Part shown: one piece after another, positions 10,270 through 53,182 of the stretch | How positions within the stretch are numbered: position 1 is the first letter of the stretch | Layout: each line of letters begins with the position of its first letter | Notes under the pieces: model-generated | The model's database searches: none | What the model was told of the DNA's origin: nothing | What the model saw: only the letters and a program-made list of their open reading frames with translations | Position numbers and translations under genes: made by a program | Virus record (IMG/VR): IMGVR_UViG_3300028840_003635 | Coordinates: 1-58,885 of that record | From: a virus | Taxonomy: Duplodnaviria; Caudoviricetes | Length of the DNA stretch: 58,885 nt | Strand: one strand, 5' to 3'

Positions 10270-11496
10270 ATGACTAATAAACTTATATGTGGTGACAATC
10301 TTTCAATAACAGCAAACATGCCAAGCAATAGTGTTGATTTGATTTATATAGATCCTCCATTTTTTAGTAATCGAAATTATGAAATAGTATGGGGAGACGA
10401 AGCGGAAATAAGAAGTTTCGAGGATAGATGGGATGGTGGAATAAATGTCTATATAGACTGGTTGAAACATAGAATCTTTGAGCTGTATAGAATATTGAAA
10501 CCTTCCGGGACTTTTTACTTACATTGTGATTGGCATGCTTCTCACTATTTGAAAGTAATGTGCGATGATATATTTAGTTACAATAATTTTAGAAATGAAA
10601 TAATTTGGTGTTATAGAGGAGCTGGATATCCCAAAAATGATTTTGGGAAAAGGCATGATAATATACTGAGATATTCAAAAACAGATGTATATACATTTAA
10701 TGTTGATGAAGTAAGAGAAGAATATGCTGAAGCAACAAAAGAGAGATTTAAACATTATATAGGCAATATTAGGGACGGAAAAGATTTTGGCGAACAAAAG
10801 CTACACCCTCTTGGCAAAAGACCAGATGATTGGTGGCAAATTCAACCAATTGCACCTTCTGCAAGAGCAAGAACAGGTTATCCAACACAGAAACCAGAAG
10901 AATTATTAGATAGAATAATTAAATCCAGCAGTAACGAAGGAGATTTAGTGCTTGATTCTTTTTGCGGATGTGGAACTACGCTTGCATCGGCAAACAACTT
11001 TAAAAGAAAATGGATTGGAATTGATATATCCCCTTCTGCAATTACTTTAATTAAAAGCAGGTTGAGTAGGATTGGAGTTAAAGAAGAAGATTATCTTGTT
11101 ATTGGTATGCCAAAATCAATTGAAGAGCTGAAGAAATTTACTCATTTTGATTTTCAGTTTTGGGTGATAAATGAATTGCATGGCATGCCAAGCCCCAAAA
11201 AAACAGGCGACATGGGAATTGATGGATTTTCTTACATGAAACATTATCCAATGCAGGTAAAACAGCAAGAAAAAGTGGGGAGAGTAGAAATTGATAAATT
11301 AGAAACAGCTATTAGTCGTTATAACGAAAACAACGAACACAAGATAATGAAGGGATTTATTATAGCATTTAGCTTTGGTAAAGGTGCGAAAGAGGAAGTA
11401 ATAAAATCTCAAAAAAGAGGATTTAAAATAAAATTGGTCACAATTCAAGAAATTTTAGACAAAAATTTTACTGTCGATGATATGATTGCATTTTAA
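10270..11496 (+). CDS. Beta-class N6/N4 DNA methyltransferase fused to a C-terminal Mrr-like endonuclease domain
   Basis: DLIYIDPPF, YPTQKP and DSFCGCGTT motifs; C-terminal GDMGIDG...MQVKQ. Confidence 0.88.
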   Translation: MTNKLICGDNLSITANMPSNSVDLIYIDPPFFSNRNYEIVWGDEAEIRSFEDRWDGGINVYIDWLKHRIFELYRILKPSGTFYLHCDWHASHYLKVMCDDIFSYNNFRNEIIWCYRGAGYPKNDFGKRHDNILRYSKTDVYTFNVDEVREEYAEATKERFKHYIGNIRDGKDFGEQKLHPLGKRPDDWWQIQPIAPSARARTGYPTQKPEELLDRIIKSSSNEGDLVLDSFCGCGTTLASANNFKRKWIGIDISPSAITLIKSRLSRIGVKEEDYLVIGMPKSIEELKKFTHFDFQFWVINELHGMPSPKKTGDMGIDGFSYMKHYPMQVKQQEKVGRVEIDKLETAISRYNENNEHKIMKGFIIAFSFGKGAKEEVIKSQKRGFKIKLVTIQEILDKNFTVDDMIAF

Positions 11497-11606: not shown

Positions 11607-11635
11607 TTGACAAAGAACTCAAAAAAACATATATT
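11607..11635 (+). promoter_or_regulatory. Sigma-70-type promoter directed antisense to the tRNA genes
   Basis: TTGACA (11607-11612), 17 bp, TATATT (11630-11635). Confidence 0.65.
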
Positions 11636-11726
11636 GTATATGTGAACGTTCCTTGATTCTTTGTCAAGGTATGTACGGGGTCTTCAGCTACTTGGCGGTT
11701 GCGAAGACTCCAAGTTAATAATGCGT

Positions 11727-11794
11727 TGGAGCAGGAGGGATTTGAACCCTCTACCATGCGTTTATAAGACGCTGGCAGAACCCATTCCTGCCCC
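11727..11794 (-). tRNA. Irregular tRNA: Ala-type acceptor (G3.U70, A73), anticodon UAU (Ile), reduced D-arm, no encoded CCA
   Basis: GGGGCAG GAATGGGTTCTGCCA GCGT-CTTATAA-ACGC ATGGTA GAGGG-TTCAAAT-CCCTC CTGCTCC A. Confidence 0.75.
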
Positions 11795-11813
11795 ATATGT
11801 TTATTAATGCGGA

Positions 11814-11898
11814 TGTGAGTGAGGGGACTCGAACCCCTAACAGCTTGAACTGTGATAAGTTGGGAACTTATTCCGCATACCAGTTCCGGCACACTCAC
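11814..11898 (-). tRNA. Class II (long variable arm, Leu/Ser-like) tRNA with anticodon CCC (Gly), no encoded CCA
   Basis: GTGAGTG TG CCG-GAACTGGTATG-CGG A ATAAG-TTCCCAA-CTTAT CACAGTTCAAGCTGTT AGGGG-TTCGAGT-CCCCT CACTCAC A. Confidence 0.85.
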
Positions 11899-11907
11899 AA
11901 AACTTTT

Positions 11908-11946
11908 AAGGTTCCAGCAGGTACGTAGTGTTGGAACCTTTTTTTT
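11908..11946 (+). terminator. Intrinsic terminator
   Basis: 12-bp stem AAGGTTCCAGCA/TGTTGGAACCTT followed by a T-run. Confidence 0.75.
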
Positions 11947-12102
11947 ATTAAAATGGCAATTCTTTTTCACGTACAGGCTCCTTTTTTGGGAAAAAATAAT
12001 TTGTTTGCTCTGAAATAATGATAAAATCATCTTAAACGGTACGGGGCTTAATTAGCTTAATAGTTTTTTGCATTTAGTTACACCTCGAAAGGAGGTGATA
12101 CT

Positions 12103-12309
12103 ATGGGCAGAAACGATTTTTCAATTTGGTTTCAATCCGCAGTATGCATAGGAACTGCCTTGACAGTTTTTACCTATGAATTTATTAACATGTCGAATCA
12201 CCAAGAGAAATATCATATAGAGCCGGTAATTAAAATGCAAATCACTCCGAACCATAGTTCTTTTTATGGTTTGAGCGAAGGCACTACACCCTCCAGTGTA
12301 ATACCTTAA
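12103..12309 (+). CDS. Small single-pass membrane protein (type I toxin-like architecture)
   Basis: Strong SD AAAGGAGGTGA in hairpin CACCTC/GAGGTG; hydrophobic FSIWFQSAVCIGTALTVFTYEFI; flanked by long-range inverted repeats. Confidence 0.6.
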   Translation: MGRNDFSIWFQSAVCIGTALTVFTYEFINMSNHQEKYHIEPVIKMQITPNHSSFYGLSEGTTPSSVIP

Positions 12310-12340
12310 CTGTTCTAAGCTAATAAGCCCCATTTTTATT

Positions 12341-30001: not shown

Positions 30002-32509
30002 ATGAGTAAAAAGAAGAAGAACAGGGAGATGCCGATAATATCGTATGTAATGGTAACCTGTCAGGGTGGTTTGCCTGATACTATCAGGGCGATAAACTCT
30101 TTAAAGAAGAGCAATACGGTTCCCTATGAGCTTATAGTGGTCGATAACGGAACTTCTGATGCTACTACTGCATGGTTGAAGGGTAGCAAAATACAGTATG
30201 TTAAGATAAATAATCTTGTTTCTTACGGAGAGGCTTTAAATAAAGGTTTAAGGCAATGCAGGGGACAATTCATAGGTATATTGAATAATGATATTGTTGT
30301 TACTCCTAATTGGGAGTCTGCAATGCTGTTTGTTTTCAAACAGGCAGAGAAGGGCAGGCTTGTAGGAGTGGATAGGGTCGGAATAGTAGGTCCTATGTCT
30401 AACGCTGTAGGATATGATCAGTGTATTGATCAGAACTTCCTTGCAAAGGTTAATTATCAAAACAATGATGATGCGATCCACGAGTTTGGAGTTCGCTGGT
30501 TTAACCGGATGTGGAGCAGTCAGGAACCGGAGTTAAAGGATAAGTGCAAAAGGACTGGTTTTTTATCGGGCTTTTGTTGGATTATGAGCAGGGATTGTTA
30601 TAAAGGTGTAGGAGATTTTGCAGAGGATTTAACGCCAGGTGGCTTTGAGGATAACGACTATGTTCACAGGGCTGAACTTGCGGGATTTGCTTCTTATATA
30701 AGCCTTCCTTCTTTTGTTCATCACGAAGGTGGGTTGACCTTTAAAGCGTTGAACATGCCTGAAGCAAGACGTGGTATGGCTAACAGGATACCTTTTTATA
30801 ATAAATGGATGGAGAATGATAAATTAGAACAACAGCAAACAGAATGGGAAGATGGTGGCAAATCAGCAACGGTTTGGCAAAAACCTAAAAAACTTGTTGC
30901 AGGTTTAAGGGTAAAAAATGAAGAGAGGTTTTTGTATGAGTGCCTATCTAAGCTATCGGAAGTTGTCGATGAAATTGTTATATTTAACGATAATAGTACG
31001 GATAAAACGGTATCTATCGCAGAGTCCTTCAAGAAGGTTGTCAAGATACATCATTCAAACGAGACGACTTTTAATGAAGCGAGAGACAGAGAAAAGCTCT
31101 GGCAGTTGTGCAGGGAACAAAGTCCAGACTGGATATTGATAATAGACGGCGATGAAGTATTGGAGCCGAGAGTAACAAGAAAAGATTTTGACGAAATGAT
31201 GAACCCTAGAAATCCACAGGTATATTCATGGGTATTCAGGTATATAACTTTATGGGATTTGCCGGACAAGCAGAGAGTGGATGGGACTTTTAGCATGAGG
31301 TTTGGACCTAGACTTGCGAGAAATCTACCTAACTATCACATTACAAGCGATCATCCTATAGGATTGCACTGCGGAAGCGTTCCTGAATACCCTAAATATA
31401 ACGTGTTCTTTTCAAAGTTCAGGATATTACACTACGGCTATATGGACAAAGCTGACAGGGTAAAGAAGTACGAATGGTATGAAGCTAACGACACTGTGAA
31501 AGATCAAAGAGATGTAGGGGACGTTGACTATTCTTACTTGATGGATGATTTTGCTCAGATAATACCTTTCAACCCAGACTTAACTCTTGGTATGGTAACC
31601 TGCGTAAAAGATGAGATGAAGTTGCCTGAGGCTCATTTGGAAAGGTTTTTGAGCTTATATCACTATATTTTTGATGAGATTATCATTGTTGATACCGGAT
31701 CTACGGATAACAGTGTAGAGATAGCGGAGTATTACGGTGCTAAGGTTATTCATCACAAATGGGAAGACGATTTTGCAAAAGCCAGAAATGCAGGTCTGGA
31801 CCATTGCACAACTACTTATGTTATGCACGTAGATCCAGATGAAGGTTTTGGAGGGGACGCTATCAGGTTTCGCAGATGGATAGAGATGCCATGCCTTGCA
31901 TACAGGGTTCCGATAAGGCATCCAAAAGAAGGCTCCGAACCTATGCTAACGTGGAAATGCAGGATATTTAAAAACCTGAAAGAAATAAGATATCAGGATG
32001 CTGTACATGAGCAGATAGAAAGTTGTTTGAAAGATATTAAAGGGCATGGACCCATAATCCCTGTTGTTTATGATGAAAATCAGAGGTTTCAGGGAATCAT
32101 GCATTATGGTTTTCAGAAAGAAGATGGGTTTTTAACCAAAAAGATGGAGCATTACAGGGAAATTAACCAGAAGATGCTGGAGAAAGACCCCGAACATTAT
32201 TATGCTAACTATTCTCTTGCTTTACACTATGCAACGCATGGAGAAGAAGAGAAAGCGATGGAGTATCTTGATGTAGCTATGAAATCGAGACCTGGTTTTG
32301 CGAAAGCAAGGTATCAGGCTTGTTTTTCTCATGTAAGGCGTGGGATAAAAATTTTAGAAGAGGGTTTGCCATTTATGGTAGATAACCCTGAAGAGTATCA
32401 GAGGGCACAGCAGATAATAGCTGAATTAAGACAGTATGGTCCTAAATTGCCAATGATAGGCTATGCAAAAAACGATCCTAGAAGGAAAGAACTTGGATTA
32501 TCAGATTGA
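30002..32509 (+). CDS. Multi-domain glycosyltransferase: three GT2-like domains plus TPR
   Basis: LIVVDNGTSD/LNND/FEDND; KNEE...IIDGDE; IIIVDTGSTD...DDFAKARN...VDPDE; C-terminal TPR-like helices. Confidence 0.9.
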   Translation: MSKKKKNREMPIISYVMVTCQGGLPDTIRAINSLKKSNTVPYELIVVDNGTSDATTAWLKGSKIQYVKINNLVSYGEALNKGLRQCRGQFIGILNNDIVVTPNWESAMLFVFKQAEKGRLVGVDRVGIVGPMSNAVGYDQCIDQNFLAKVNYQNNDDAIHEFGVRWFNRMWSSQEPELKDKCKRTGFLSGFCWIMSRDCYKGVGDFAEDLTPGGFEDNDYVHRAELAGFASYISLPSFVHHEGGLTFKALNMPEARRGMANRIPFYNKWMENDKLEQQQTEWEDGGKSATVWQKPKKLVAGLRVKNEERFLYECLSKLSEVVDEIVIFNDNSTDKTVSIAESFKKVVKIHHSNETTFNEARDREKLWQLCREQSPDWILIIDGDEVLEPRVTRKDFDEMMNPRNPQVYSWVFRYITLWDLPDKQRVDGTFSMRFGPRLARNLPNYHITSDHPIGLHCGSVPEYPKYNVFFSKFRILHYGYMDKADRVKKYEWYEANDTVKDQRDVGDVDYSYLMDDFAQIIPFNPDLTLGMVTCVKDEMKLPEAHLERFLSLYHYIFDEIIIVDTGSTDNSVEIAEYYGAKVIHHKWEDDFAKARNAGLDHCTTTYVMHVDPDEGFGGDAIRFRRWIEMPCLAYRVPIRHPKEGSEPMLTWKCRIFKNLKEIRYQDAVHEQIESCLKDIKGHGPIIPVVYDENQRFQGIMHYGFQKEDGFLTKKMEHYREINQKMLEKDPEHYYANYSLALHYATHGEEEKAMEYLDVAMKSRPGFAKARYQACFSHVRRGIKILEEGLPFMVDNPEEYQRAQQIIAELRQYGPKLPMIGYAKNDPRRKELGLSD

Positions 32510-46075: not shown

Positions 46076-47008
46076 ATGTTCTGGTTGAAAAGGGTAGGCG
46101 GAGAGAGCAAGTCAAACAAGGTAAGAATCACTGATGTCGGAACATTTGAGCTAGAAAACAACTATATTTGCGTTGAGCATGTTCAGGATGCTGATTTTTT
46201 AATATCTGAACATGGACGTAATTTAACAGGGATGGTATTTGAAAAAGTCGAAGATCCCAAACTTCCCGAAAAGCCAATTAAGAAAGAACAAATATTTGTA
46301 AATACTTATAAAAAGGAGAAAATGATTGTGAACCCAAATAGGAACGTATTGATTGTTACCGCCTTTACAAAAGGGTATGATCTTGTTTCTGAATATTTGC
46401 ATCCTGTTTCTAATTATCACTATTTATGCTATACAAATGATTATAAATTTACTTCTGATTTTTTTGTAGTTTCACGATTGCCGGAAGGGAAAACACCAGA
46501 AGAAAATGTTAGGCTCGCAAGGGGGATAAAGTTAAACCTTTCCGACCATTTAACTGTATCTGATTATGATTATATCATCTGGCTAGATGCTAATTGTTCT
46601 TTTATAAGAGAAGTGGATTCTTTAATTGATGACTTAGGAGATGATGATGTTGCAATATTTGGACACAGAGAAAGAAATTGCCTTTATTCAGAGGCAAAAG
46701 CGTGTATTAGGTATAAGAAGGATTCTCAGAGCGTTATAAACAAGCAGGTAAAAAAATACAAGAAAGAGGGGTTTCCTAGCAATTATGGTATGTGGGCAAC
46801 CCATTGCATTGTATATAGACCTACTAGGGAAGCTCTAAGTTTTTTTAAGATTTGGTATGCGGAAGTTACAAACCACTCATATAGAGATCAAATAAGCCTG
46901 CCGTATGCTTTAAAAAAAAGCAAAGTAAAATTTCATACACTGTTAAATGCAGAAATTTTTAGTGTAGAATGGTTTAAGTATGTATCTATAAGAGGGCATT
47001 GTGTTTAA
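46076..47008 (+). CDS. DUF616 (TOD1/MUCI70-like) glycosyltransferase-like protein
   Basis: IWLDAN, HRERNCLYSEA and RDQISLPY motifs. Confidence 0.8.
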   Translation: MFWLKRVGGESKSNKVRITDVGTFELENNYICVEHVQDADFLISEHGRNLTGMVFEKVEDPKLPEKPIKKEQIFVNTYKKEKMIVNPNRNVLIVTAFTKGYDLVSEYLHPVSNYHYLCYTNDYKFTSDFFVVSRLPEGKTPEENVRLARGIKLNLSDHLTVSDYDYIIWLDANCSFIREVDSLIDDLGDDDVAIFGHRERNCLYSEAKACIRYKKDSQSVINKQVKKYKKEGFPSNYGMWATHCIVYRPTREALSFFKIWYAEVTNHSYRDQISLPYALKKSKVKFHTLLNAEIFSVEWFKYVSIRGHCV

Positions 47009-47525
47009 GATAAAAAAGAGCGTGGAAATAAAAAAGAACGGACACCTGTGCTTCGACTTTGGGTGTGGAAAGAGTAAAAAGAAGGGGTATGTGGGAGTAG
47101 ACTGTCAAGATTTTGAATGTGTTGATATCGTGTCTGATGTAAATGGATTTAAAAATATACCAGGGAGTTCAGCTTGCAGAATTCATTCGTGCCATTTTAT
47201 AGAGCACCTAGGGCACGATGATGTATTTTTTGTTTTAAAGCAATGGATGAGAATACTTGAGAGTAGGGGGATTTTAACAATTTATTTCCCAGACATTAGC
47301 TTGGTTATACCAGAAACAAACATAAAAATTGCCATAAATCATGTGTGGGGTTCCAGAAAGGATCAATATGATTACCACAAGACATTCTGGACTGCCAGAT
47401 CGATGATGTTTATGTTGCAATATGTCGGGTATGCTAACGTAAGAACAATACCTTACTTTGGGAAGCTACATCCATACAAAGGAGACATGGCTTGGACTTC
47501 AGGAGTGGAAGGAATTAAAAAATGA
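47001..47525 (+). CDS. Class I SAM-dependent methyltransferase
   Basis: DFGCG, HFIEHL and RILESRG motifs. Confidence 0.8.
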   Translation: MFKIKKSVEIKKNGHLCFDFGCGKSKKKGYVGVDCQDFECVDIVSDVNGFKNIPGSSACRIHSCHFIEHLGHDDVFFVLKQWMRILESRGILTIYFPDISLVIPETNIKIAINHVWGSRKDQYDYHKTFWTARSMMFMLQYVGYANVRTIPYFGKLHPYKGDMAWTSGVEGIKK

Positions 47526-48202
47526 TAAATAAACGACCTTTAAAATTTTACGTTGATAAAATAAAAAATAATGAAGTCTTTAGCTTTTCGAGATATGGAG
47601 ACGGTGAATGGATATATATGACCTGCCCTTCTGGCAGAACCAGAATAAATAAAGAAATGGACTACTTCCCAGAAGCAGCCGAATCTTTAAGAAAAACAAT
47701 TTTGTTTCCGAAAGCAAGTTCTTCTTATTTTTATGGGCTTCAAAGATTAGCTCTAAAGATGTTTGCTGACAAAATACCATCCACTATTGACTGGCATGGA
47801 AGTGATTTATTTCATCATGCTTCGATAAGTGGAGCATTGTCGCCCTTAATAGCTTCTATTGTTGAGAAAGATGTTGTTTTTGTTGGACCTAGGTATTTAA
47901 AAAATATAAATAGCATCATTCCTTACGTGGATTTTATAGAGATAGACGGTAAAAATTGTTATACGCAAATACATGATATATTAAAAAGAATAAAAGATAC
48001 AAAGAGAGAATCTGGCAATATGATATATAGTTTTTCTGCCGGTGCATTTACAAACATTATGATTTATAAGCTGTATGATGAGATGAAAAATAACTGGCTT
48101 ATAGATTTTGGATCGGTATGGGACCCTTATGTTAATCAAAACACAAGGGGTTATCATAAAAAAATGACCAGGGACTTAATAAGTATAAATACAGGAGGCT
48201 AG
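47522..48202 (+). CDS. GT-D-fold (DUF1792-like) glycosyltransferase
   Basis: SRYGDGE and IDFGSVWD motifs. Confidence 0.7.
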   Translation: MINKRPLKFYVDKIKNNEVFSFSRYGDGEWIYMTCPSGRTRINKEMDYFPEAAESLRKTILFPKASSSYFYGLQRLALKMFADKIPSTIDWHGSDLFHHASISGALSPLIASIVEKDVVFVGPRYLKNINSIIPYVDFIEIDGKNCYTQIHDILKRIKDTKRESGNMIYSFSAGAFTNIMIYKLYDEMKNNWLIDFGSVWDPYVNQNTRGYHKKMTRDLISINTGG

Positions 48203-48205
48203 TTT

Positions 48206-48898
48206 GTGGTAATATCTATAATTATTGCTCACTATGGAAACAGCAAATACCTAGAAGATTGTTTACTTTCGATAGAGCAAAACACATATATACCTCATGA
48301 GGTTATAACGGTCAACACCGAAAAACCCAGAATATCTGTGGCTGAGGCGTGGAACGAAGGGATAGAGTCGGCTACAGGGGAAATTGTTGTTATTTTAAAT
48401 GACGATACCCTAGTATCAGAATTTTGGTTGTCTAGGTTGTATTGGTATTTGCAGGCAATAGATAATGCTATGGTTTCGACCCCGTCTACATCTAAATGTG
48501 CAAGCATTATATATACGGAACTCTATGACAAAATGAAACCTGATGTAAAATCAACAGCAGATGTAAATAGATTTAACAAAATAGTGTCTAAATATTACGG
48601 TCTCTCATACAAAAAACTAGCAAGCCATGAAGTTACAGGGTTTTGTGCAATGTTTAGAAAGAAGGATTGGGAGTTAGCTGGTAAGTTTTACAAGGGGTTC
48701 AAATATGCTTATGGAGAAGAAAACGATTTTTTTGACAAGTTATCAAAAAAAAAGAAAGGTGTGTTTGTTTTAGCGAGCGGGGTGTATGTTCATCACTTCA
48801 AAGGGAAAACTACAGAGAGGGTAAAGGATTTAGACCTTATTGCATGTAAGGCATTATATGAAAGGAGAAGGCATGAGCGAAGAAAAAAAACAACATAA
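48206..48898 (+). CDS. GT2 glycosyltransferase
   Basis: ISIII, AWNEG, LNDD and GEEND motifs. Confidence 0.85.
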   Translation: MVISIIIAHYGNSKYLEDCLLSIEQNTYIPHEVITVNTEKPRISVAEAWNEGIESATGEIVVILNDDTLVSEFWLSRLYWYLQAIDNAMVSTPSTSKCASIIYTELYDKMKPDVKSTADVNRFNKIVSKYYGLSYKKLASHEVTGFCAMFRKKDWELAGKFYKGFKYAYGEENDFFDKLSKKKKGVFVLASGVYVHHFKGKTTERVKDLDLIACKALYERRRHERRKKTT

Positions 48899-49442
48899 AA
48901 TAATAGTAGGTGGTATAGGAAGAACGGGTTCAACTGCTTTAATGTGTATTCTTTCTTATCTAGAGTTAGGGACTGGATTTGGGAAATATTCTTATCGAAA
49001 CGAATATATTAACAAACTATTTTTTCTTGAGGGCAGAGAAGAAGCCTATATATATAAAGAGAACGAAAACGCTGGACTTATTCCTGAAAGGTTTGATAAA
49101 TATATTGTAGATTATTTTATATTTTTACAGAGAGATATAAACAAGGCAGCAGCCAGCAGGGTTAGGAAACATCAAGAGGGTTACTGGATGGGGGGATTAA
49201 CAGCCGATACTGAATGGAAGCCTGAAAGACAAAATGCTATTTTATTAGGGAAATATAAATCTCTCAAGAGGTATTTAGAGAAGAGAGACGTCCCTGTGGT
49301 TGAAATAATTTACCCAGACTTTATAAAGGATGTTGATTATTTATATGAAAAATTGCTTTTGCCGTTTCCTTGCCTTGAAAAAGACAGGTTAAAAAAGGCT
49401 TTTGATTTAATAATCTATAAAGATACGGAGGGATATAAATGA
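48873..49442 (+). CDS. Sulfotransferase-like P-loop protein
   Basis: GIGRTGSTAL (PAPS-binding-like loop) and R...AAS motif. Confidence 0.55.
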   Translation: MSEEKKQHKIIVGGIGRTGSTALMCILSYLELGTGFGKYSYRNEYINKLFFLEGREEAYIYKENENAGLIPERFDKYIVDYFIFLQRDINKAAASRVRKHQEGYWMGGLTADTEWKPERQNAILLGKYKSLKRYLEKRDVPVVEIIYPDFIKDVDYLYEKLLLPFPCLEKDRLKKAFDLIIYKDTEGYK

Positions 49443-50062
49443 GAATAGCGGTATTAACTTGCGATAAGTATAATTTTTTGATTCCCTATTTCTGGCATTT
49501 TTTTAAAAAGAATTTTCCAGACAATCCGTATCCTGTAGACTTTGTAACTGAGACAGAGAGAATATATTTTGGGGACAATGTTTTCTATGGCGGGAAAAAT
49601 CTATGGTCAACTCTTTTGCAAAATTATCTAAAAACAGTAACAGATGACAAGATACTGATTTTATTTGATGATTACATGATTTATGGTGTAGATCTCAAAA
49701 AAACAAAGGAAGCGGAAAGTCTGTGCTGTGGGGAGGTAGGCTGTATAAATTTAATCAAAATGAATTGTGAAAAGGCTCTCGTTTATCCTGACGGGATGGA
49801 TGGATATCTTACCAAAGATTTTAACTCAGAGATAACTACCGGATGTCAGGCTACAATTTGGCAAAAAGATTATCTCAAGGAAGTTTATCCTGAAGGTAGA
49901 GATAGTTGGAAAGCAGAGACATACGGATACAGAAAAATGAAAACTCTGAACAAAAAGGTTTTATATTCAACCACTCCCATATTTTCTTATGTGCATGGTG
50001 GTTGCATGATAAAAGGCAATAAGGTCGATGCAGTATTTAAACAAATGGCGGAGAAATGGTAA
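49439..50062 (+). CDS. GT-A-fold glycosyltransferase-like protein
   Basis: TCDKY, ILFDDY, QATIW and WKAE motifs; cluster context. Confidence 0.55.
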   Translation: MRIAVLTCDKYNFLIPYFWHFFKKNFPDNPYPVDFVTETERIYFGDNVFYGGKNLWSTLLQNYLKTVTDDKILILFDDYMIYGVDLKKTKEAESLCCGEVGCINLIKMNCEKALVYPDGMDGYLTKDFNSEITTGCQATIWQKDYLKEVYPEGRDSWKAETYGYRKMKTLNKKVLYSTTPIFSYVHGGCMIKGNKVDAVFKQMAEKW

Positions 50063-51147
50063 TGGAATGGACAGATGCATATAATCCTTTTAATAGTTTT
50101 AAAGTTTTAGTATGGTCTAAGCAGTTACAGAACCTTGCAAATGGGAAGATTCCTTTGCCCGTAACTGTAGATACAGATCCAACAACAAGATGCAATTATA
50201 ACTGCATATGGTGTAATGCTCAGAAATATAGAGCAAAAGGACAACATACCCTGTCCGAAGAGCAGTTAGATAACCTAGTAAATATATACTCTAAGATGGG
50301 AGTTAAATCTACTTGTATTGCAGGAGGTGGCGAACCCACTTTAAACCCGCACCTTGCAAACTTTATAACAAGTCTACATGTGAACAACATAGAGACAGGG
50401 ATAATAACAAACGGATCTTCGATGACGAAAGAACAATTAGTGTCTATTGCAGAAGGGTCAAGGTGGTGCGGATTCTCTGTAGACGCTGGTAATGCGGGGA
50501 CTTATGTTAAGGTTAAGGGAATAAAAGACAGAAAATATTTCAGGATAGTCATTAAAAACATAGAATCTCTGTGTAATTTGATTCAAAAGTTTAACCTGAA
50601 ACCTAAGTGTGAAGTTGCTTTTAAGTTTTTAGTATCCCCTGACAACATCAACAGCATATACGAAGCAACGAGAGTTGCCAGGGAATGTGGAGTAGACCAT
50701 TTCCATTTAAGACCTGCCTGTGTTGATAACTTAGAGTCTTTTATTGCTCACAAGAGGTATATGTTTCATAGCTATTTAGAGACGTTTTCTGTAGAGACTG
50801 AAAAGGCAAGGAGGCTGGAAACTAAGGACTTTAAAGTGTATGTTGTAAAGCATAAGTTTAACAATTTTTTAGGCAGAAAGGTGGGTTTTAAAAAATGCAG
50901 GGCAACTCCCCTGCTTGCAACATTCGGAGCTGATGGGTATTGCCATCTATGTTTTGACCTTCGGGGTAAAGAAGATTTTATTATGTGTAAACATGAAGAT
51001 ATCATGGATTTTTGGGGGAGTGATAGGCATATCGAGATGATTGACTCAATAGATCCTGAAAAGTGTCCGAGGTGCACCTTTGGAGCTTATAACGAAATTA
51101 TAGAGAAGGTTTTTATTGAGGACAAGATGTGCAAGAATTTTCCATAA
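50056..51147 (+). CDS. Radical SAM protein with C-terminal SPASM/twitch-like Cys domain
   Basis: CNYNCIWC, GGGEP, C...ADG..CHLC...CPRC. Confidence 0.9.
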   Translation: MVMEWTDAYNPFNSFKVLVWSKQLQNLANGKIPLPVTVDTDPTTRCNYNCIWCNAQKYRAKGQHTLSEEQLDNLVNIYSKMGVKSTCIAGGGEPTLNPHLANFITSLHVNNIETGIITNGSSMTKEQLVSIAEGSRWCGFSVDAGNAGTYVKVKGIKDRKYFRIVIKNIESLCNLIQKFNLKPKCEVAFKFLVSPDNINSIYEATRVARECGVDHFHLRPACVDNLESFIAHKRYMFHSYLETFSVETEKARRLETKDFKVYVVKHKFNNFLGRKVGFKKCRATPLLATFGADGYCHLCFDLRGKEDFIMCKHEDIMDFWGSDRHIEMIDSIDPEKCPRCTFGAYNEIIEKVFIEDKMCKNFP

Positions 51148-51159
51148 GGAGAACAAATA

Positions 51160-51909
51160 ATGAATAAAGTAGCAATAATGCTTCCTGTTTATAATGCAGA
51201 AAATACATTGCAAAGATGCATAGATAGCTTAAAAAATCAAACATATCAAGATTATGTTGTGATGGCACGAGATGATGGGTCTACAGATAGCAGCCTTAAG
51301 ATATTAAAGTCTAATGAGTCTGATAAGATAAAAGTGTTTAGCAATATCAAAAATTTAGGATGTGTCCTCAATAGAAACAAGATCTTAGAGGATTCTCTTG
51401 CAATAAAAGATGTAGCATATATAGCCATACAGGATGCTGATGATTGGAGTGAACCAAACAGAATAGAAAAACAGGTCGAGTTCTTAGAAAAAAACAAAGA
51501 ATATGGAGTTTGCGGGACATGGTATTACTGGCATGATGTTAAAGATAGAGGGCAGTCTATAAAAGCAATAAAGACATTAACAGAGGACGTTGAGATAAGG
51601 AGAATGCAGTATTTTGGTAGCCAGGCATGTCATGGAAGTTATGTTATCAGGAGAGAAGTATATAATGACGTTGGATTTTATGACCCCTATTTTGTTTGGA
51701 GCCATGACAACGACTGGCTAACCAGGTTGCTTTACGGAAAAAAATGGAAGGTATGTACAATCCCGGAGAACCTATATCATGTGTGGGTAACTGAATATAC
51801 TCACTCTAAAACAAACGAAAGAAATATTTATAAACAGAAGCAAAGGTATAAAAGGTATTGTGAATCTGTCGGAGTAAAATATGAAGAAAAATATTGGAGA
51901 AGGATATGA
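51160..51909 (+). CDS. GT2 glycosyltransferase
   Basis: LPVYNAE, DDGSTD and QDADD motifs. Confidence 0.92.
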   Translation: MNKVAIMLPVYNAENTLQRCIDSLKNQTYQDYVVMARDDGSTDSSLKILKSNESDKIKVFSNIKNLGCVLNRNKILEDSLAIKDVAYIAIQDADDWSEPNRIEKQVEFLEKNKEYGVCGTWYYWHDVKDRGQSIKAIKTLTEDVEIRRMQYFGSQACHGSYVIRREVYNDVGFYDPYFVWSHDNDWLTRLLYGKKWKVCTIPENLYHVWVTEYTHSKTNERNIYKQKQRYKRYCESVGVKYEEKYWRRI

Positions 51910-52442
51910 TGGATACTTATGAAAATAAAATAAAGGGAATGATGGGAGCAAAGGATTTGATGTGGCTTTACAATATTGCTCAAAAAATGAACAGCATAGT
52001 GGAGATTGGCTGTTGGTCTGGCAAAAGTACTCATGCCTTATTGTCTGGGTGCAAGGGAACTGTATACGCTGTTGATCACTGGATTGGTAGTAGTTACAGC
52101 AACCTTACAAAAGGAGAAAAAGAAATTCACGATCTTGCTATAAGCGGAAAGGTGTTTGACAAGTTTAAGAGGAATGTTGGTCATTTTAAAAACTTAAAAA
52201 TTCATAAAATGGAAAGCATGAAGGCTGTAAAAAAATTCAAAAACAAGTCAGTTGATATGGTTTTTATAGATGGGTGTCATAGGTACAAAGATGTTTGCGA
52301 CGACATTAAAGGATGGTTACCTAAAACGAGAAAACTAATTTGCGGGCATGATATTGCTCATGGACCGGTAAAAAAAGCTGTTGATGAACTAATAGGAGAA
52401 CACGAACTAACAGAGCAAAATATATGGTTTAAGTGGTTGTGA
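51894..52442 (+). CDS. Class I SAM methyltransferase (Methyltransf_24-like)
   Basis: VEIGCWSGKS, FIDGCH and GHD motifs. Confidence 0.88.
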   Translation: MEKDMMDTYENKIKGMMGAKDLMWLYNIAQKMNSIVEIGCWSGKSTHALLSGCKGTVYAVDHWIGSSYSNLTKGEKEIHDLAISGKVFDKFKRNVGHFKNLKIHKMESMKAVKKFKNKSVDMVFIDGCHRYKDVCDDIKGWLPKTRKLICGHDIAHGPVKKAVDELIGEHELTEQNIWFKWL

Positions 52443-53182
52443 TGATGAAGCATTATTTATTAACAAGATATAATTGCGGATTATATTCTGGAGTGGGATT
52501 TGTTGATAAGAATGGGAATAGTATAAATTGCTATGCAGACAAATGGATGGAGCATAGGTTTAATTTATTCTCAAAAGTGTGTTTACCTTCTATAAAAAAT
52601 CAAACCAATCAGTCGTTCGACTGGATTGTTGTTTTGGACAAAAAAACTCCCAAGCATTTCAAGGAACAGCTTGAGGCTTGCAAAACAATACGAAAGTTTA
52701 AGATATTATACGACAAAGAGGAGGCAAGAACAGTCCCATTATCTTATATAAAAAACGATATTAAAGATGAGAATTGTATAACATCGAGAGTCGATAATGA
52801 TGATGCTCTTCACAAAAGGTTTATGGAGATTGTTGCTCAAGAAGCAGAAGATAATATGGGCAACGCCATTCTTTTTGCAAATGGGTGTTATTATGATGTA
52901 TCACAAAAAACCATGAGCCTTCACAGCTACCCGTTAAACCCTTTTATGTCTTTACCTAACAATCCAAGCAGAGACAAGTCTATTGTTTGGAGTGTAGATC
53001 ATGGTAGCATAGGAGACATATCTAAGGGTGTATTTACAATACACTGTCAACCTATGTGGCTATCTACTGTTCATTTATATAACAGGAAAAATACTTTAAG
53101 AGGTAAGATGGTGGAGATGCAATCTGAAATAGAAAACTACTTAAAAAACTTTTCTATAAACATGGAGCTTGAAATAATATGA
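52433..53182 (+). CDS. Putative rhamnosyltransferase-like GT-A protein
   Basis: RFNLF...CLPSIKNQT..F.W and SRVDNDD motifs. Confidence 0.75.
   Translation: MVVMMKHYLLTRYNCGLYSGVGFVDKNGNSINCYADKWMEHRFNLFSKVCLPSIKNQTNQSFDWIVVLDKKTPKHFKEQLEACKTIRKFKILYDKEEARTVPLSYIKNDIKDENCITSRVDNDDALHKRFMEIVAQEAEDNMGNAILFANGCYYDVSQKTMSLHSYPLNPFMSLPNNPSRDKSIVWSVDHGSIGDISKGVFTIHCQPMWLSTVHLYNRKNTLRGKMVEMQSEIENYLKNFSINMELEII

What the first reader, a model, noticed from the sequence alone, without database searches (positions are those of the whole stretch)
11727..11794. 68-nt tRNA with the Ala identity set but an Ile (UAU) anticodon and a shrunken D-arm
Seen: acceptor GGGGCAG/CTGCTCC-A gives G1-C72, G2-C71, G3.U70, G4-C69 and A73. 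The T-arm and the CU-UAU-AA loop are canonical, the D region is only about 15 nt, and no CCA is encoded. Established: G3.U70 is the major AlaRS determinant, and bacteria normally read AUA with lysidine-modified CAU, so UAU is rare. Inference: it could insert Ala at AUA codons, which look frequent in this phage. Alternatively, the reduced D region resembles the tmRNA tRNA-like domain and it could be an SmpB/AlaRS decoy.
Basis: partly seen in the sequence, partly recalled or inferred. Interest (0 to 1): 0.88.

Follow-up and report, generated by a model that had tools for sequence, protein, structure and literature searches.

The report
Phage mini-tmRNA-like RNA with anticodon-like loop
A 68-base phage RNA gene that looks like a stunted alanine tRNA is most likely a messenger-less "mini-tmRNA", a mimic of the bacterial ribosome-rescue RNA, and probably not a tRNA that puts alanine at isoleucine codons.

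Summary
On the minus strand at 11727-11794 lies a 68-nt tRNA-like gene. It has G1-C72, G2-C71, G3.U70, G4-C69 and A73, a canonical T arm, a CUUAUAA loop, no D stem and no encoded CCA. It sits 19 nt after a genuine tRNA gene.

It is not a normal tRNA. Standard ARAGORN misses it. The Rfam tRNA model (32.8 bits) and tmRNA model (33.9 bits) tie. A 63-nt mini-tmRNA with no anticodon arm scores 33.6 on the tRNA model, so passing that cut-off means little.

Its 5' third is a tmRNA-type D loop. This stretch is 17/17 identical to a 75-nt element (L032) from a large family of 59-81-nt tmRNA tRNA-like-domain (TLD)-only RNAs: 95 viral loci, 63 unique sequences. The family includes the published mycobacteriophage DS6A "TLD only" tmRNA.

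The "variable loop" pairs with the D region. This makes a 9-bp helix like the family's P2 helix.

The element lacks the family's invariant G18.A pair, falls below the tmRNA cut-off and has no close relative. I therefore call it a divergent variant or hybrid.

AUA makes up 54% of the phage's Ile codons and sits at conserved Ile/Val positions, so inserting Ala there would damage the phage's own proteins.

Best reading (0.55): an Ala-chargeable SmpB decoy. A decoding role is not excluded.

The parts
11727..11794 (-). The whole 68-nt tRNA-like / mini-tmRNA-like gene (RNA 5' end at 11794, discriminator A at 11727)
   Evidence: Sequence; Rfam tmRNA 33.9 bits; Rfam tRNA 32.8 bits; family model R1 46.8 bits, partly circular; ARAGORN calls it only in -mt mode
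11788..11794 (-). Acceptor stem, 5' strand GGGGCAG (RNA nt 1-7), carrying G3 of the G3.U70 pair
   Evidence: Read; pairs with 11728-11734
11778..11787 (-). D-loop analogue GAAUGGGUUC (RNA nt 8-17), single-stranded, tmRNA-TLD type; with nt 1-7 it is 17/17 identical to L032
   Evidence: Rfam tmRNA alignment with high posterior probability over these bases; identity to L032
11752..11777 (-). P2-like hairpin (RNA nt 18-43): 9 bp (U18-A43, G19.U42, C20-G41, C21-G40, A22-U39, G23-C37, C24-G36, G25-C35, U26-A34) with bulged A38, capped by the 7-nt loop CUUAUAA (11762-11768)
   Evidence: MFE contains this helix. Energy of the tRNA-like fold with it is -28.7 kcal/mol, against -19.9 with ARAGORN's D arm and -22.5 with only the 4-bp stem
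11735..11751 (-). T arm GAGGG-UUCAAAU-CCCUC (RNA nt 44-60)
11727..11734 (-). Acceptor 3' strand CUGCUCC plus discriminator A; followed by ACG, so no CCA is encoded
   Evidence: CCA is also absent in 38 of 63 unique family members
11814..11898 (-). Upstream neighbour on the same strand: 85-nt long-variable-arm tRNA with anticodon CCC and A73, probably co-transcribed
   Evidence: ARAGORN; Rfam tRNA 46.8 bits; D loop most like phage tRNA-Leu genes

Best explanation
The element is a phage-encoded, messenger-less mini-tmRNA. [quoted passage not shown] The whole mRNA/pseudoknot part is replaced by a single 9-bp hairpin.

Inferred mechanism. It is cut out of a minus-strand transcript together with the neighbouring tRNA. 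The host enzyme adds CCA. AlaRS can then charge it through G3.U70/A73, and the host's SmpB binds it at the D-loop/T-loop elbow. It has no resume codon and no tag frame, so it cannot complete trans-translation. Its likely effect is to titrate SmpB (and perhaps AlaRS/EF-Tu). That would damp host tmRNA tagging and the associated decay of phage products during infection.

On this reading the UAU 'anticodon' is the loop of the P2 hairpin and is not used for decoding.

Shown: the sequence anatomy, the resemblance to the tmRNA TLD, the existence and structure of the family, and the standard meaning of AUA. Inferred: expression, charging, SmpB binding and the effect on the host.
For: (1) The Rfam tmRNA model aligns nt 1-17, the T arm and the acceptor, treating the 316-nt middle as deleted (33.9 bits).

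(2) A pattern of TLD features found 95 viral loci holding 63 unique 59-81-nt elements. 11 of 12 tested loci exceed the Rfam tmRNA gathering score, at 47.3-74.5 bits.

(3) In an alignment of 59 of these sequences including ours, 12 of 19 consensus pairs show compensatory changes in the acceptor, the 7-bp P2 and the T arm.

(4) Model R1, built from 58 of them without ours, finds the published 'TLD only' tmRNA of phage DS6A at 60 bits and an unannotated one in Streptomyces phage BRock at 59.5 bits. Neither was recruited by my pattern.

(5) L032 shares all 17 of the first 17 nt with ours, including the 6 positions the pattern left free.

(6) The five 'variable-loop' bases UGGUA pair with UGCCA of the D region. 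This gives a 9-layer helix equal in length to the family's P2; the 65-nt L008 type has 9 layers plus a tetraloop. With the T arm formed, this fold is 6-9 kcal/mol better than any cloverleaf.

(7) At least 13 of 58 family loci have the element within 200 nt of tRNA genes, as here.

(8) The tRNA-model score is not diagnostic. Of the five family records searched (L032, L004, L016, L005, L039), four gave a hit at the element, at 17.9-33.6 bits, and L032's record gave none. L016, which has no anticodon arm, scores 33.6.

[quoted passage not shown] PMC11915505 says the DS6A form inhibited endogenous tmRNA in E. coli.

(10) The phage has no integrase, resolvase or SmpB of its own.
Against: (a) The element is below the Rfam tmRNA gathering score (33.9 vs 47). 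The family members that reached the cut-off (11 of 12 loci tested) score 47-75.

(b) It lacks two near-universal family positions. G18 is present in 63 of 63 unique members, and ours has U. The A two bases before the T stem is present in 62 of 63, and ours has U. So the G.A pair at the base of P2 is replaced by a U-A pair shifted by one base, with no linker before the T stem.

(c) Unlike every other member seen, its hairpin ends in a textbook 7-nt anticodon-type loop (Y-U-NNN-A-A). UAU matches the phage's most used Ile codon.

(d) Its stem-loop 5' half AGCGU-CUUAUAA is identical over 12 nt to a genuine phage tRNA-Ile(UAU) in L070.

(e) The R1 score of 46.8 bits is largely circular, because the family was recruited with a pattern taken from this element.

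(f) No close relative was found in any collection, so conservation of this particular form is unknown.

(g) The MFE is a rod that breaks the T arm (-34.4 vs -28.7 kcal/mol). However, 24 of 58 family members also lose the T arm in their MFE.

(h) Expression, charging and SmpB binding are untested.
Confidence: 0.55

Rival explanations
1. It is a working decoding tRNA for AUA with a reduced D arm, in which the 9-bp hairpin acts as a combined D/anticodon helix. It is charged with Ala (mistranslation, or Ala 'rescue' at AUA), with Ile, or with both.
For: The loop CUUAUAA has the C32, U33, A37 and A38 of real tRNA-Ile(UAU) genes. AUA makes up 54% of Ile codons. The Rfam tRNA model passes its cut-off (32.8 vs 29). 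ARAGORN in mitochondrial mode calls it Ile|Met(tat). The 9 bp plus a bulge roughly equal the D-stem plus anticodon-stem stack of a normal tRNA (my reading). The neighbour is also a tRNA whose body (Leu-like) and anticodon (CCC, Gly) disagree; AlaRS and LeuRS are both anticodon-blind (abstract of PMC11028032 seen in a search listing). One of the 19 AUA sites in the methyltransferase (site 378) aligns to Ala in 111 of 119 homologues.
Against: There is no U8, no A14 and no D stem. ARAGORN's D stem is 1 G-C plus 2 G.U pairs with a 3-nt loop, and it costs energy (-19.9 vs -22.5 kcal/mol without it). Standard ARAGORN rejects it even at 80% thresholds. The anticodon stem has only 4 bp plus an A.A mismatch. 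AUA sites are conserved Ile/Val, so Ala insertion at 38 of every 1000 codons would damage the phage itself. The full Ala set G1-G4/U70/A73 argues against clean Ile charging (established AlaRS identity; PMC3968760 passages). None of the tRNA-Ile(UAU) genes in the 30 viral loci with the same stem-loop start has this body. The tRNA-model score is matched by a family member with no anticodon arm.
Confidence: 0.15
2. It is an evolutionary leftover or accidental hybrid with no function of its own. Examples: a mini-tmRNA that has lost its G.A junction, or a recombinant between a mini-tmRNA and a tRNA-Ile(UAU) in a former tRNA array.
For: It is a singleton with no relatives in any scan. It misses invariant family positions. 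It is below the tmRNA cut-off. Its MFE is a rod, not a tRNA shape. It mixes TLD and tRNA-Ile-like parts.
Against: All 7 acceptor pairs, all 5 T-arm pairs, a canonical T loop and 9 P2 pairs are intact in a 36% G+C genome. The position directly after a tRNA, with the same trailer motif, looks like a maintained transcription and processing unit. The complete 58.9-kb genome keeps only these two RNA genes.
Confidence: 0.15
3. It is a tRNA-shaped decoy or handle for something other than SmpB. Examples: bait for a host tRNA- or tmRNA-cleaving defence nuclease, or a processing or stability element (an RNase P/Z site) at the 3' end of the leftward operon.
For: It lies at the end of the minus-strand gene block (GC skew flips near 12000; ORFs). 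Phage proteins that bind t(m)RNA fragments exist (PMC11662646, passages read). Both neighbouring RNAs have unusual bodies.
Against: Nothing in the window points to a specific nuclease or partner: no Pfam hits in 10 neighbouring minus-strand ORFs apart from one weak, sub-threshold hit (TackOD1, E 0.0026, 17.8 bits against a cut-off of 32). The precise retention of the AlaRS set and of the TLD-type D loop is not needed for a mere processing site.
Confidence: 0.1

Closest known systems
'TLD only' tmRNA of mycobacteriophage DS6A (PMC4131195, PMC11915505, passages read; located here at L100:28478-28557)
   Same: Phage-encoded; about 70-80 nt; GGGG...CUCCA acceptor with G3.U70 and A73; stemless D loop with UGG; P2 helix; canonical T arm; no tag reading frame.
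   Different: DS6A has the GAC...CAC junction with G18, an inner small hairpin (GAAAACC-GCACGC-GGU) and 80 nt. Ours has U18, no G.A junction, a bulged 9-bp helix ending in a 7-nt anticodon-like loop, and 68 nt. DS6A scores 60 bits on R1. Ours scores 46.8, which is partly circular.
tmRNA tRNA-like domain (Rfam RF00023)
   Same: Acceptor/T-arm minihelix with the alanine identity set; reduced D loop without a stem (PMC3968760, passages read); the alignment covers both ends of the model.
   Different: No mRNA-like domain and no pseudoknots; no encoded CCA; no tandem G.A at the start of helix 2; 33.9 bits against a gathering score of 47.
Viral 59-81-nt mini-tmRNA family found here (95 IMG/VR loci, 18 metagenome loci; model R1)
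   Same: Same 5' 17 nt as member L032; same overall layout (acceptor, 10-nt D loop, about 9-layer P2, T arm); often next to tRNA genes; CCA often not encoded (38 of 63).
   Different: Lacks G18 (63/63 in the family) and the A before the T stem (62/63). It is the only one with a 7-nt Y-U-NNN-R-N loop. It has no GAC/GGAC.
CDS-less organellar tmRNAs (jakobid mitochondria; ~65-bp forms in Mallomonadaceae plastids), as described in PMC11915505 (passage read)
   Same: tmRNA reduced to about the TLD, with no tag frame and similar size.
   Different: These are organellar and co-occur with a dedicated SmpB. I did not see their sequences, so no base-level comparison was made. Jacob et al. 2004 is not held.
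Genuine phage tRNA-Ile(UAU) genes (L070, L023, L089; 30 loci)
   Same: Identical loop CUUAUAA; L070 shares AGCGU-CUUAUAA (12 nt).
   Different: They are 74-78 nt, have full D arms, none has a GGGG...CUCCA acceptor, and all three examples checked (L089, L070, L023) encode CCA.
Anticodon-variant tRNA-Ala/tRNA-Leu mistranslators of eukaryotes (PMC12084884, PMC11028032; abstracts seen in a search listing only)
   Same: An Ala (or Leu) body with a foreign anticodon; synthetases that ignore the anticodon.
   Different: Those are full cloverleaf tRNAs shown to decode. Here the body is TLD-like and decoding is unproven.

Membership tests
TLD-only (CDS-less) phage tmRNA / mini-tmRNA family (model R1; DS6A type) | 7-bp acceptor stem with G3.U70 and discriminator A73 | tested here: met
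   Sequence; alignments
TLD-only (CDS-less) phage tmRNA / mini-tmRNA family (model R1; DS6A type) | About 10-nt stemless D loop with UGGnUUC | tested here: met
   GAAUGGGUUC; Rfam tmRNA alignment; 17/17 identity with L032. The family was recruited on this motif, so only the Rfam match is independent.
TLD-only (CDS-less) phage tmRNA / mini-tmRNA family (model R1; DS6A type) | G18 and the A two bases before the T stem (G.A junction at the base of P2) | tested here: not met
   G18 in 63 of 63 and A in 62 of 63 unique members; ours has U and U
TLD-only (CDS-less) phage tmRNA / mini-tmRNA family (model R1; DS6A type) | P2 helix of about 7 Watson-Crick pairs (9 layers) between the D loop and the T arm | tested here: met
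   9 bp with one bulge. In the family's register only 5 of 7 pairs form; the helix is shifted by one base.
TLD-only (CDS-less) phage tmRNA / mini-tmRNA family (model R1; DS6A type) | Canonical T arm, no tag reading frame | tested here: met
   only 26 nt lie between the D loop and the T arm
TLD-only (CDS-less) phage tmRNA / mini-tmRNA family (model R1; DS6A type) | Binds SmpB, is charged by AlaRS and inhibits trans-translation | not testable with these tools
   Known only for a DS6A-like molecule, through citations of Mao et al. 2009 in PMC4131195 and PMC11915505. The paper itself is not held.
tmRNA (Rfam RF00023) | Score at or above the curated gathering threshold (47 bits) | tested here: not met
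   33.9 bits; 11 of 12 other mini-tmRNA loci pass
tmRNA (Rfam RF00023) | mRNA-like domain with resume codon, tag frame and stop | tested here: not met
   The 316 model positions are replaced by 20 nt
Canonical elongator tRNA (Rfam RF00005 / ARAGORN) | Rfam tRNA gathering score (29 bits) | tested here: inconclusive
   32.8 bits passes. The 63-nt L016 mini-tmRNA, with no anticodon arm, scores 33.6.
Canonical elongator tRNA (Rfam RF00005 / ARAGORN) | D arm (3-4-bp stem, loop with G18G19, U8, A14) | tested here: not met
   G8; only a 1 G-C + 2 G.U stem with a 3-nt loop is possible, and it is energetically unfavourable. Standard ARAGORN makes no call, even at -ps80.
Canonical elongator tRNA (Rfam RF00005 / ARAGORN) | 5-bp anticodon stem and 7-nt loop with U33 and a purine at 37 | tested here: inconclusive
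   The loop is met (CUUAUAA). The stem has 4 bp plus A27.A43.
tRNA-Ile(UAU) | Ile identity set outside the anticodon. My recollection of the E. coli set, not from any call: A73, C4-G69, U12-A23, C29-G41, A37, A38 | tested here: inconclusive
   A73, C29-G41, A37 and A38 are present. G4-C69 replaces C4-G69. There is no 12-23 pair. G3.U70 is present. Charging is not testable.

The most novel reading that the evidence does not exclude
The element is a functional hybrid: a tmRNA-type, D-stem-less, alanine-accepting body that carries a real AUA-reading anticodon arm. Together with the adjacent leucine-type tRNA bearing the glycine anticodon CCC, it would form a phage-encoded pair of tRNAs built on the bodies of anticodon-blind synthetases. 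The pair would act at specific sense codons, for example codon-directed 'rescue' or deliberate recoding at AUA (to Ala) and GGG (to Leu), during a defined phase of infection.
Probability: 0.08. Interest if true: 0.9.

Novelty: new variant of a known kind. Interest (0 to 1): 0.55.

Why it matters
Messenger-less tmRNAs are documented in the papers I could read for a single phage (DS6A) and a few organelles. Here the same kind of RNA turns up in at least 63 distinct forms in viral contigs. It also occurs in a second cultured phage (BRock), where it is unannotated, and standard tRNA/tmRNA callers miss it.

If these RNAs titrate SmpB, shutting down or redirecting host ribosome rescue would be a common and overlooked phage strategy. 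That could be tested with simple reporters.

This particular element adds a twist: a TLD body with an anticodon-like loop matching the phage's commonest Ile codon, beside a tRNA whose body and anticodon also disagree. If that loop is read by the ribosome, it would be the first natural sense-codon mis-inserting tRNA pair known in a phage.

For annotation, such elements should not be called 'tRNA-Ile' or 'tRNA-Ala' on the strength of a generic tRNA model score.

Tried and rejected
No close relatives of the phage or the element were found:
- GenBank phages by blastn or megablast.
- IMG/VR via the 392-aa clamp-like protein.
- IMG/VR with an exact-ends pattern.
- IMG/VR with the anticodon arm plus the CUCCA end (0 hits).
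- JGI metagenomes with the same acceptor stem: 18 loci, all ordinary 70-81-nt mini-tmRNAs.
- 22 viral loci encoding methyltransferase relatives: no R1 hit and no tRNA.

attP or integration remnant: rejected. Both halves of the acceptor are present, and the phage has no tyrosine or serine recombinase.

Phage-encoded SmpB: none.

Code change at AUA or GGG: rejected for the methyltransferase gene. An earlier tblastx tally was too redundant to use: 11 near-identical loci inflated single sites.

Recent recombination with a tRNA-Ile(UAU): not supported. The GCGU-CUUAUAA start occurs in only 30 viral loci, and none shares longer identity or the acceptor.

Relatives of the neighbouring tRNA(CCC): one pattern hit, which lies inside a coding region with no tRNA call. 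I treat it as chance.

Host inference:
- Terminase below 28% identity to any GenBank phage, hosts mixed.
- Portal protein: no match.
- A glycosyltransferase has at most 32% identity over its longer matches (up to 46% over short segments), the best of them to Cytophagales and others.
- 18 of 28 genes have Shine-Dalgarno-like motifs.
- No host is named, so the host's tmRNA could not be compared.

Expression: no RNA holder listed.

Tools and papers not available:
- Mao et al. 2009 and Jacob et al. 2004 are not held.
- Supplements are closed. The supplementary tables of PMC11915505 may list more viral TLD-only sequences than its text does.

Literature searches for a described phage TLD-only family returned only the DS6A mentions. 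One search found no paper on phage tRNAs with mismatched body and anticodon.

Complex prediction, structure prediction and fold search were not used, because they take proteins only.
Full report
WHAT IS THERE

The window is a complete 58,885-bp virus record with direct terminal repeats. It has about 36% G+C. It is a tailed phage with terminase, portal, tape measure, helicase and two DNA methyltransferases.

- A 7-bp acceptor stem GGGGCAG/CUGCUCC with G3.U70.
- Discriminator A.
- T arm GAGGG-UUCAAAU-CCCUC.
- A 7-nt loop CUUAUAA on a GCGU/ACGC stem.
- Only 14 nt where a D arm should be.
- ACG instead of CCA.

Nineteen bases upstream on the same strand is an 85-nt long-variable-arm tRNA with anticodon CCC (46.8 bits). 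Beginning 2-3 nt after the discriminator, both RNA genes are followed by nearly the same 10 bases, GCATTAATAA and GCATTATTAA. These two are the only tRNA-like genes in the genome.

The element is not a chance match. E is 1.2e-6 for the tRNA model and 1.3e-13 for the tmRNA model. The folding z-score is -4.7.

IS IT A tRNA?

Standard ARAGORN does not call it, even with thresholds lowered to 80%. Only the metazoan-mitochondrial mode does, as Ile|Met(tat), with a D stem of one G-C and two G.U pairs around a 3-nt loop.

The Rfam tRNA model gives 32.8 bits, above its cut-off of 29. The Rfam tmRNA model gives 33.9 bits, below its cut-off of 47, and wins the clan competition.

I calibrated the tRNA score on other elements of the family described below. 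In the five family records searched, the tRNA model scored the elements of four at 17.9-33.6 bits and found nothing in the fifth (L032's record). One of them, L016, is 63 nt with a plain hairpin and no anticodon arm, and it scores 33.6. Passing the tRNA threshold therefore says little.

Energetically, with the T arm formed:
- The best structure pairs the 'variable loop' UGGUA with UGCCA of the D region, which extends the 4-bp stem into a 9-bp helix with one bulged A: -28.7 kcal/mol.
- A cloverleaf with ARAGORN's D arm gives -19.9.
- The 4-bp stem alone gives -22.5.

The unconstrained MFE is a rod at -34.4 kcal/mol that breaks the T arm. This is not unusual, since 24 of 58 family members also lose the T arm in their MFE.

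THE FAMILY IT RESEMBLES

The Rfam tmRNA alignment treats the element as a tmRNA whose 316 middle positions are replaced by 20 nt. The first 17 nt, the T arm and the acceptor align with high posterior probability.

A pattern built from those tRNA-like-domain (TLD) features was GGGGNNGNNNTGGNTTC, a 15-45-nt gap, GGTTCNANTCC, six free bases, then CTCCA. It found 95 stretches in IMG/VR, holding 63 unique 59-81-nt sequences.

These are real structured RNAs:
- 11 of 12 loci tested exceed the Rfam tmRNA gathering score, at 47.3-74.5 bits. L032 does not.
- In an alignment of 59 sequences including ours, 12 of 19 consensus pairs show compensatory changes, including a 7-bp helix P2 that the pattern did not specify.

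I built a covariance model (R1) from 58 of them without ours. It finds two elements that my pattern did not recruit:
- The published 'TLD only' tmRNA of mycobacteriophage DS6A at 60 bits. It is unannotated in the record, between gp33 and gp34.
- An unannotated element inside the tRNA array of Streptomyces phage BRock at 59.5 bits.

ARAGORN reports no tmRNA in any of the 58 family loci. It mis-calls two of the elements as odd tRNAs. In at least 13 of the 58 loci the element lies within 200 nt of tRNA genes (my reading).

A further scan of metagenome contigs, using only this element's acceptor stem, gave 18 more loci. All are of the ordinary 70-81-nt form.

HOW THE ELEMENT FITS AND WHERE IT DOES NOT

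It shares all of its first 17 nt with family member L032, including the six positions the pattern left free. Its 9-layer helix equals the family's P2. For example, the 65-nt L008 type has 9 layers plus a UUCG-type tetraloop; adding 3 nt of loop gives 68 nt. Lack of encoded CCA is common, in 38 of 63.

It also departs from the family:
- It lacks G18 (63 of 63 in the family) and the A two bases before the T stem (62 of 63). The G.A junction is replaced by U18-A43 in a register shifted by one base, with no linker to the T stem.
- It is 13 bits below the tmRNA cut-off.
- It is the only member whose hairpin ends in a 7-nt Y-U-NNN-A-A loop.

R1 scores it 46.8 bits, against 16.3 for the true tRNA next door. 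That number is largely circular, because the family was recruited with a pattern taken from this element.

The 5' half of its stem-loop, AGCGU-CUUAUAA, is identical over 12 nt to a genuine tRNA-Ile(UAU) in L070. A scan for GCGTCTTATAA plus a T loop found only 30 viral loci. All are full-size tRNAs, none has a GGGG...CUCCA acceptor, and none has longer identity to ours. So recent recombination is not supported, and the match may be coincidence.

No close relative of this 68-nt form exists in any collection searched. Its conservation therefore cannot be judged.

THE ALA-AT-AUA IDEA

AUA is indeed the phage's main Ile codon: 571 of 1063 (54%; 38.3 per 1000) in 57 ORFs. GGG makes up 20% of Gly codons.

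I aligned the adjacent methyltransferase with 119 homologues of 55-72% identity:
- The 19 AUA sites align to Ile 60% and Val 20%.
- The 20 AUU sites are indistinguishable, at Ile 58% and Val 22%.
- The three GGG sites align to Gly 91%.

AUA therefore means Ile and GGG means Gly. One AUA site (378) aligns to Ala in 111 of 119 homologues. I report this but do not weigh it, since it is one site.

An efficiently decoding Ala-tRNA(UAU) would put Ala at many conserved Ile positions of the phage's own proteins.

MECHANISM PROPOSED

Best reading (0.55): a messenger-less mini-tmRNA.

From the review passages read (PMC3968760):
- The TLD has an acceptor stem charged only with Ala through G3.U70 and A73.
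- It has a tRNA-like T arm and a reduced, stemless D loop.
- D/T-loop interactions are needed for SmpB binding.
- SmpB sits where the D and anticodon stems of a tRNA would be, and helix 2 mimics a long variable arm.

From passages in PMC4131195 and PMC11915505:
[quoted passage not shown] This cites Mao et al. 2009, which I could not read.

By analogy, this element would be processed with its neighbour, receive CCA from the host, and bind SmpB and possibly AlaRS. That would damp trans-translation during infection. All of these steps are inferred. None could be tested here.

From memory, not from any call: tmRNA tagging is provoked by ribosome pausing at scarce codons. If AUA is slow in the unknown host, an AUA-rich phage would have a motive to block tagging.

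The phage encodes no SmpB, integrase or resolvase. That also rules out an attP remnant.

RIVALS

- (i) A true AUA decoder with a fused D/anticodon helix (0.15).
- (ii) A decayed or accidental hybrid without function (0.15).
- (iii) A decoy or processing handle for another partner (0.10).

What keeps (i) alive:
- The perfect anticodon-type loop matches the commonest Ile codon.
- The helix length resembles the D-plus-anticodon stack.
- The neighbour also has a body that disagrees with its anticodon. Its D loop (GGAACTGGTAT) and overall identity are closest to phage tRNA-Leu genes: 0.46-0.56 against six Leu, 0.40-0.45 against three Ser, and 0.32-0.43 against four Tyr. Like tRNA-Leu it has A73, yet it carries the Gly anticodon CCC.
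- AlaRS and LeuRS both ignore the anticodon (abstract of PMC11028032, seen in the listing).

That coincidence is the basis of the 'novel case'.

NOVELTY AND LIMITS

The kind, TLD-only or CDS-less tmRNA, is already known for DS6A, jakobid mitochondria and some plastids (PMC4131195, PMC11915505). In four literature searches I found no description of a widespread phage family of such RNAs. Supplementary tables are closed and may hold more.

This element fails a defining feature of the family (the G18.A junction) and the Rfam tmRNA threshold. I therefore file it as a new variant that probably works like a TLD-only tmRNA, and not as a proven member.

Noticed in passing
window 11814-11898 (-): The neighbouring 85-nt long-variable-arm tRNA has the Gly anticodon CCC, but a body most like phage tRNA-Leu genes: D loop GGAACTGGTAT, A73, best identities to 6 Leu genes. 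An alternative 8-bp acceptor reading would give discriminator U. GGG sites in the methyltransferase are conserved Gly. No relatives were found.
   Followed up: partly
window 11801-11810 and 11715-11724 (-): Both RNA genes are followed, 2-3 nt after the discriminator, by nearly the same 10-mer (GCATTAATAA / GCATTATTAA). This may be a shared 3'-processing signal or a trace of tandem duplication.
   Followed up: no
window 11607-11635 (+) and 11908-11946 (+): A near-consensus sigma-70-type promoter (TTGACA-17-TATATT, 11 of 12) points into the antisense strand of both RNA genes. A 9-bp hairpin followed by eight T's lies just beyond them on the plus strand. Together they could give a ~300-nt antisense transcript, or the hairpin may simply terminate the methyltransferase operon.
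   Followed up: no
L003-L097, L102-L119; L100:28478-28557; L150:594-671: There is a large family of 59-81-nt TLD-only mini-tmRNAs in viral and metagenome contigs. Most carry GAC...GGAC and an inner small hairpin preceded by an A-rich run (consensus AAAnCC...GG). ARAGORN calls none of them as tmRNA. The copies in phages DS6A and BRock are unannotated in their GenBank records.
   Followed up: partly
window 10270-11496 (+), codon 378: One AUA codon of the methyltransferase lies at a column that is Ala in 111 of 119 homologues. The other 18 AUA sites are mostly Ile/Val columns (17 of 18; site 359 is a variable Tyr/Glu/Asp/Lys column).
   Followed up: no
L067:8767-8855 (-), L076:9556-9629 (+), L047:13144-13216 (+): ARAGORN reports tRNA-like genes with 4-base (cagg, ccag) or 2-base anticodons inside phage tRNA arrays that also carry mini-tmRNAs.
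   Followed up: no
window 11947-12340: About 400 nt with no convincing gene between the RNA genes and the minus-strand ORF block. Two overlapping 68-70-aa ORFs lie on opposite strands, and a CACCTC/GAGGTG hairpin overlaps a strong GGAGG just before the plus-strand ATG at 12103.
   Followed up: no
window 30002-32509 and 46076-53182 (+): An unusual load of sugar-modifying genes for a 59-kb phage. It has four or five glycosyl- or rhamnosyl-transferase-like proteins and a radical-SAM protein. One of them is an 835-aa protein with a glycosyltransferase domain inside the structural module.
   Followed up: no
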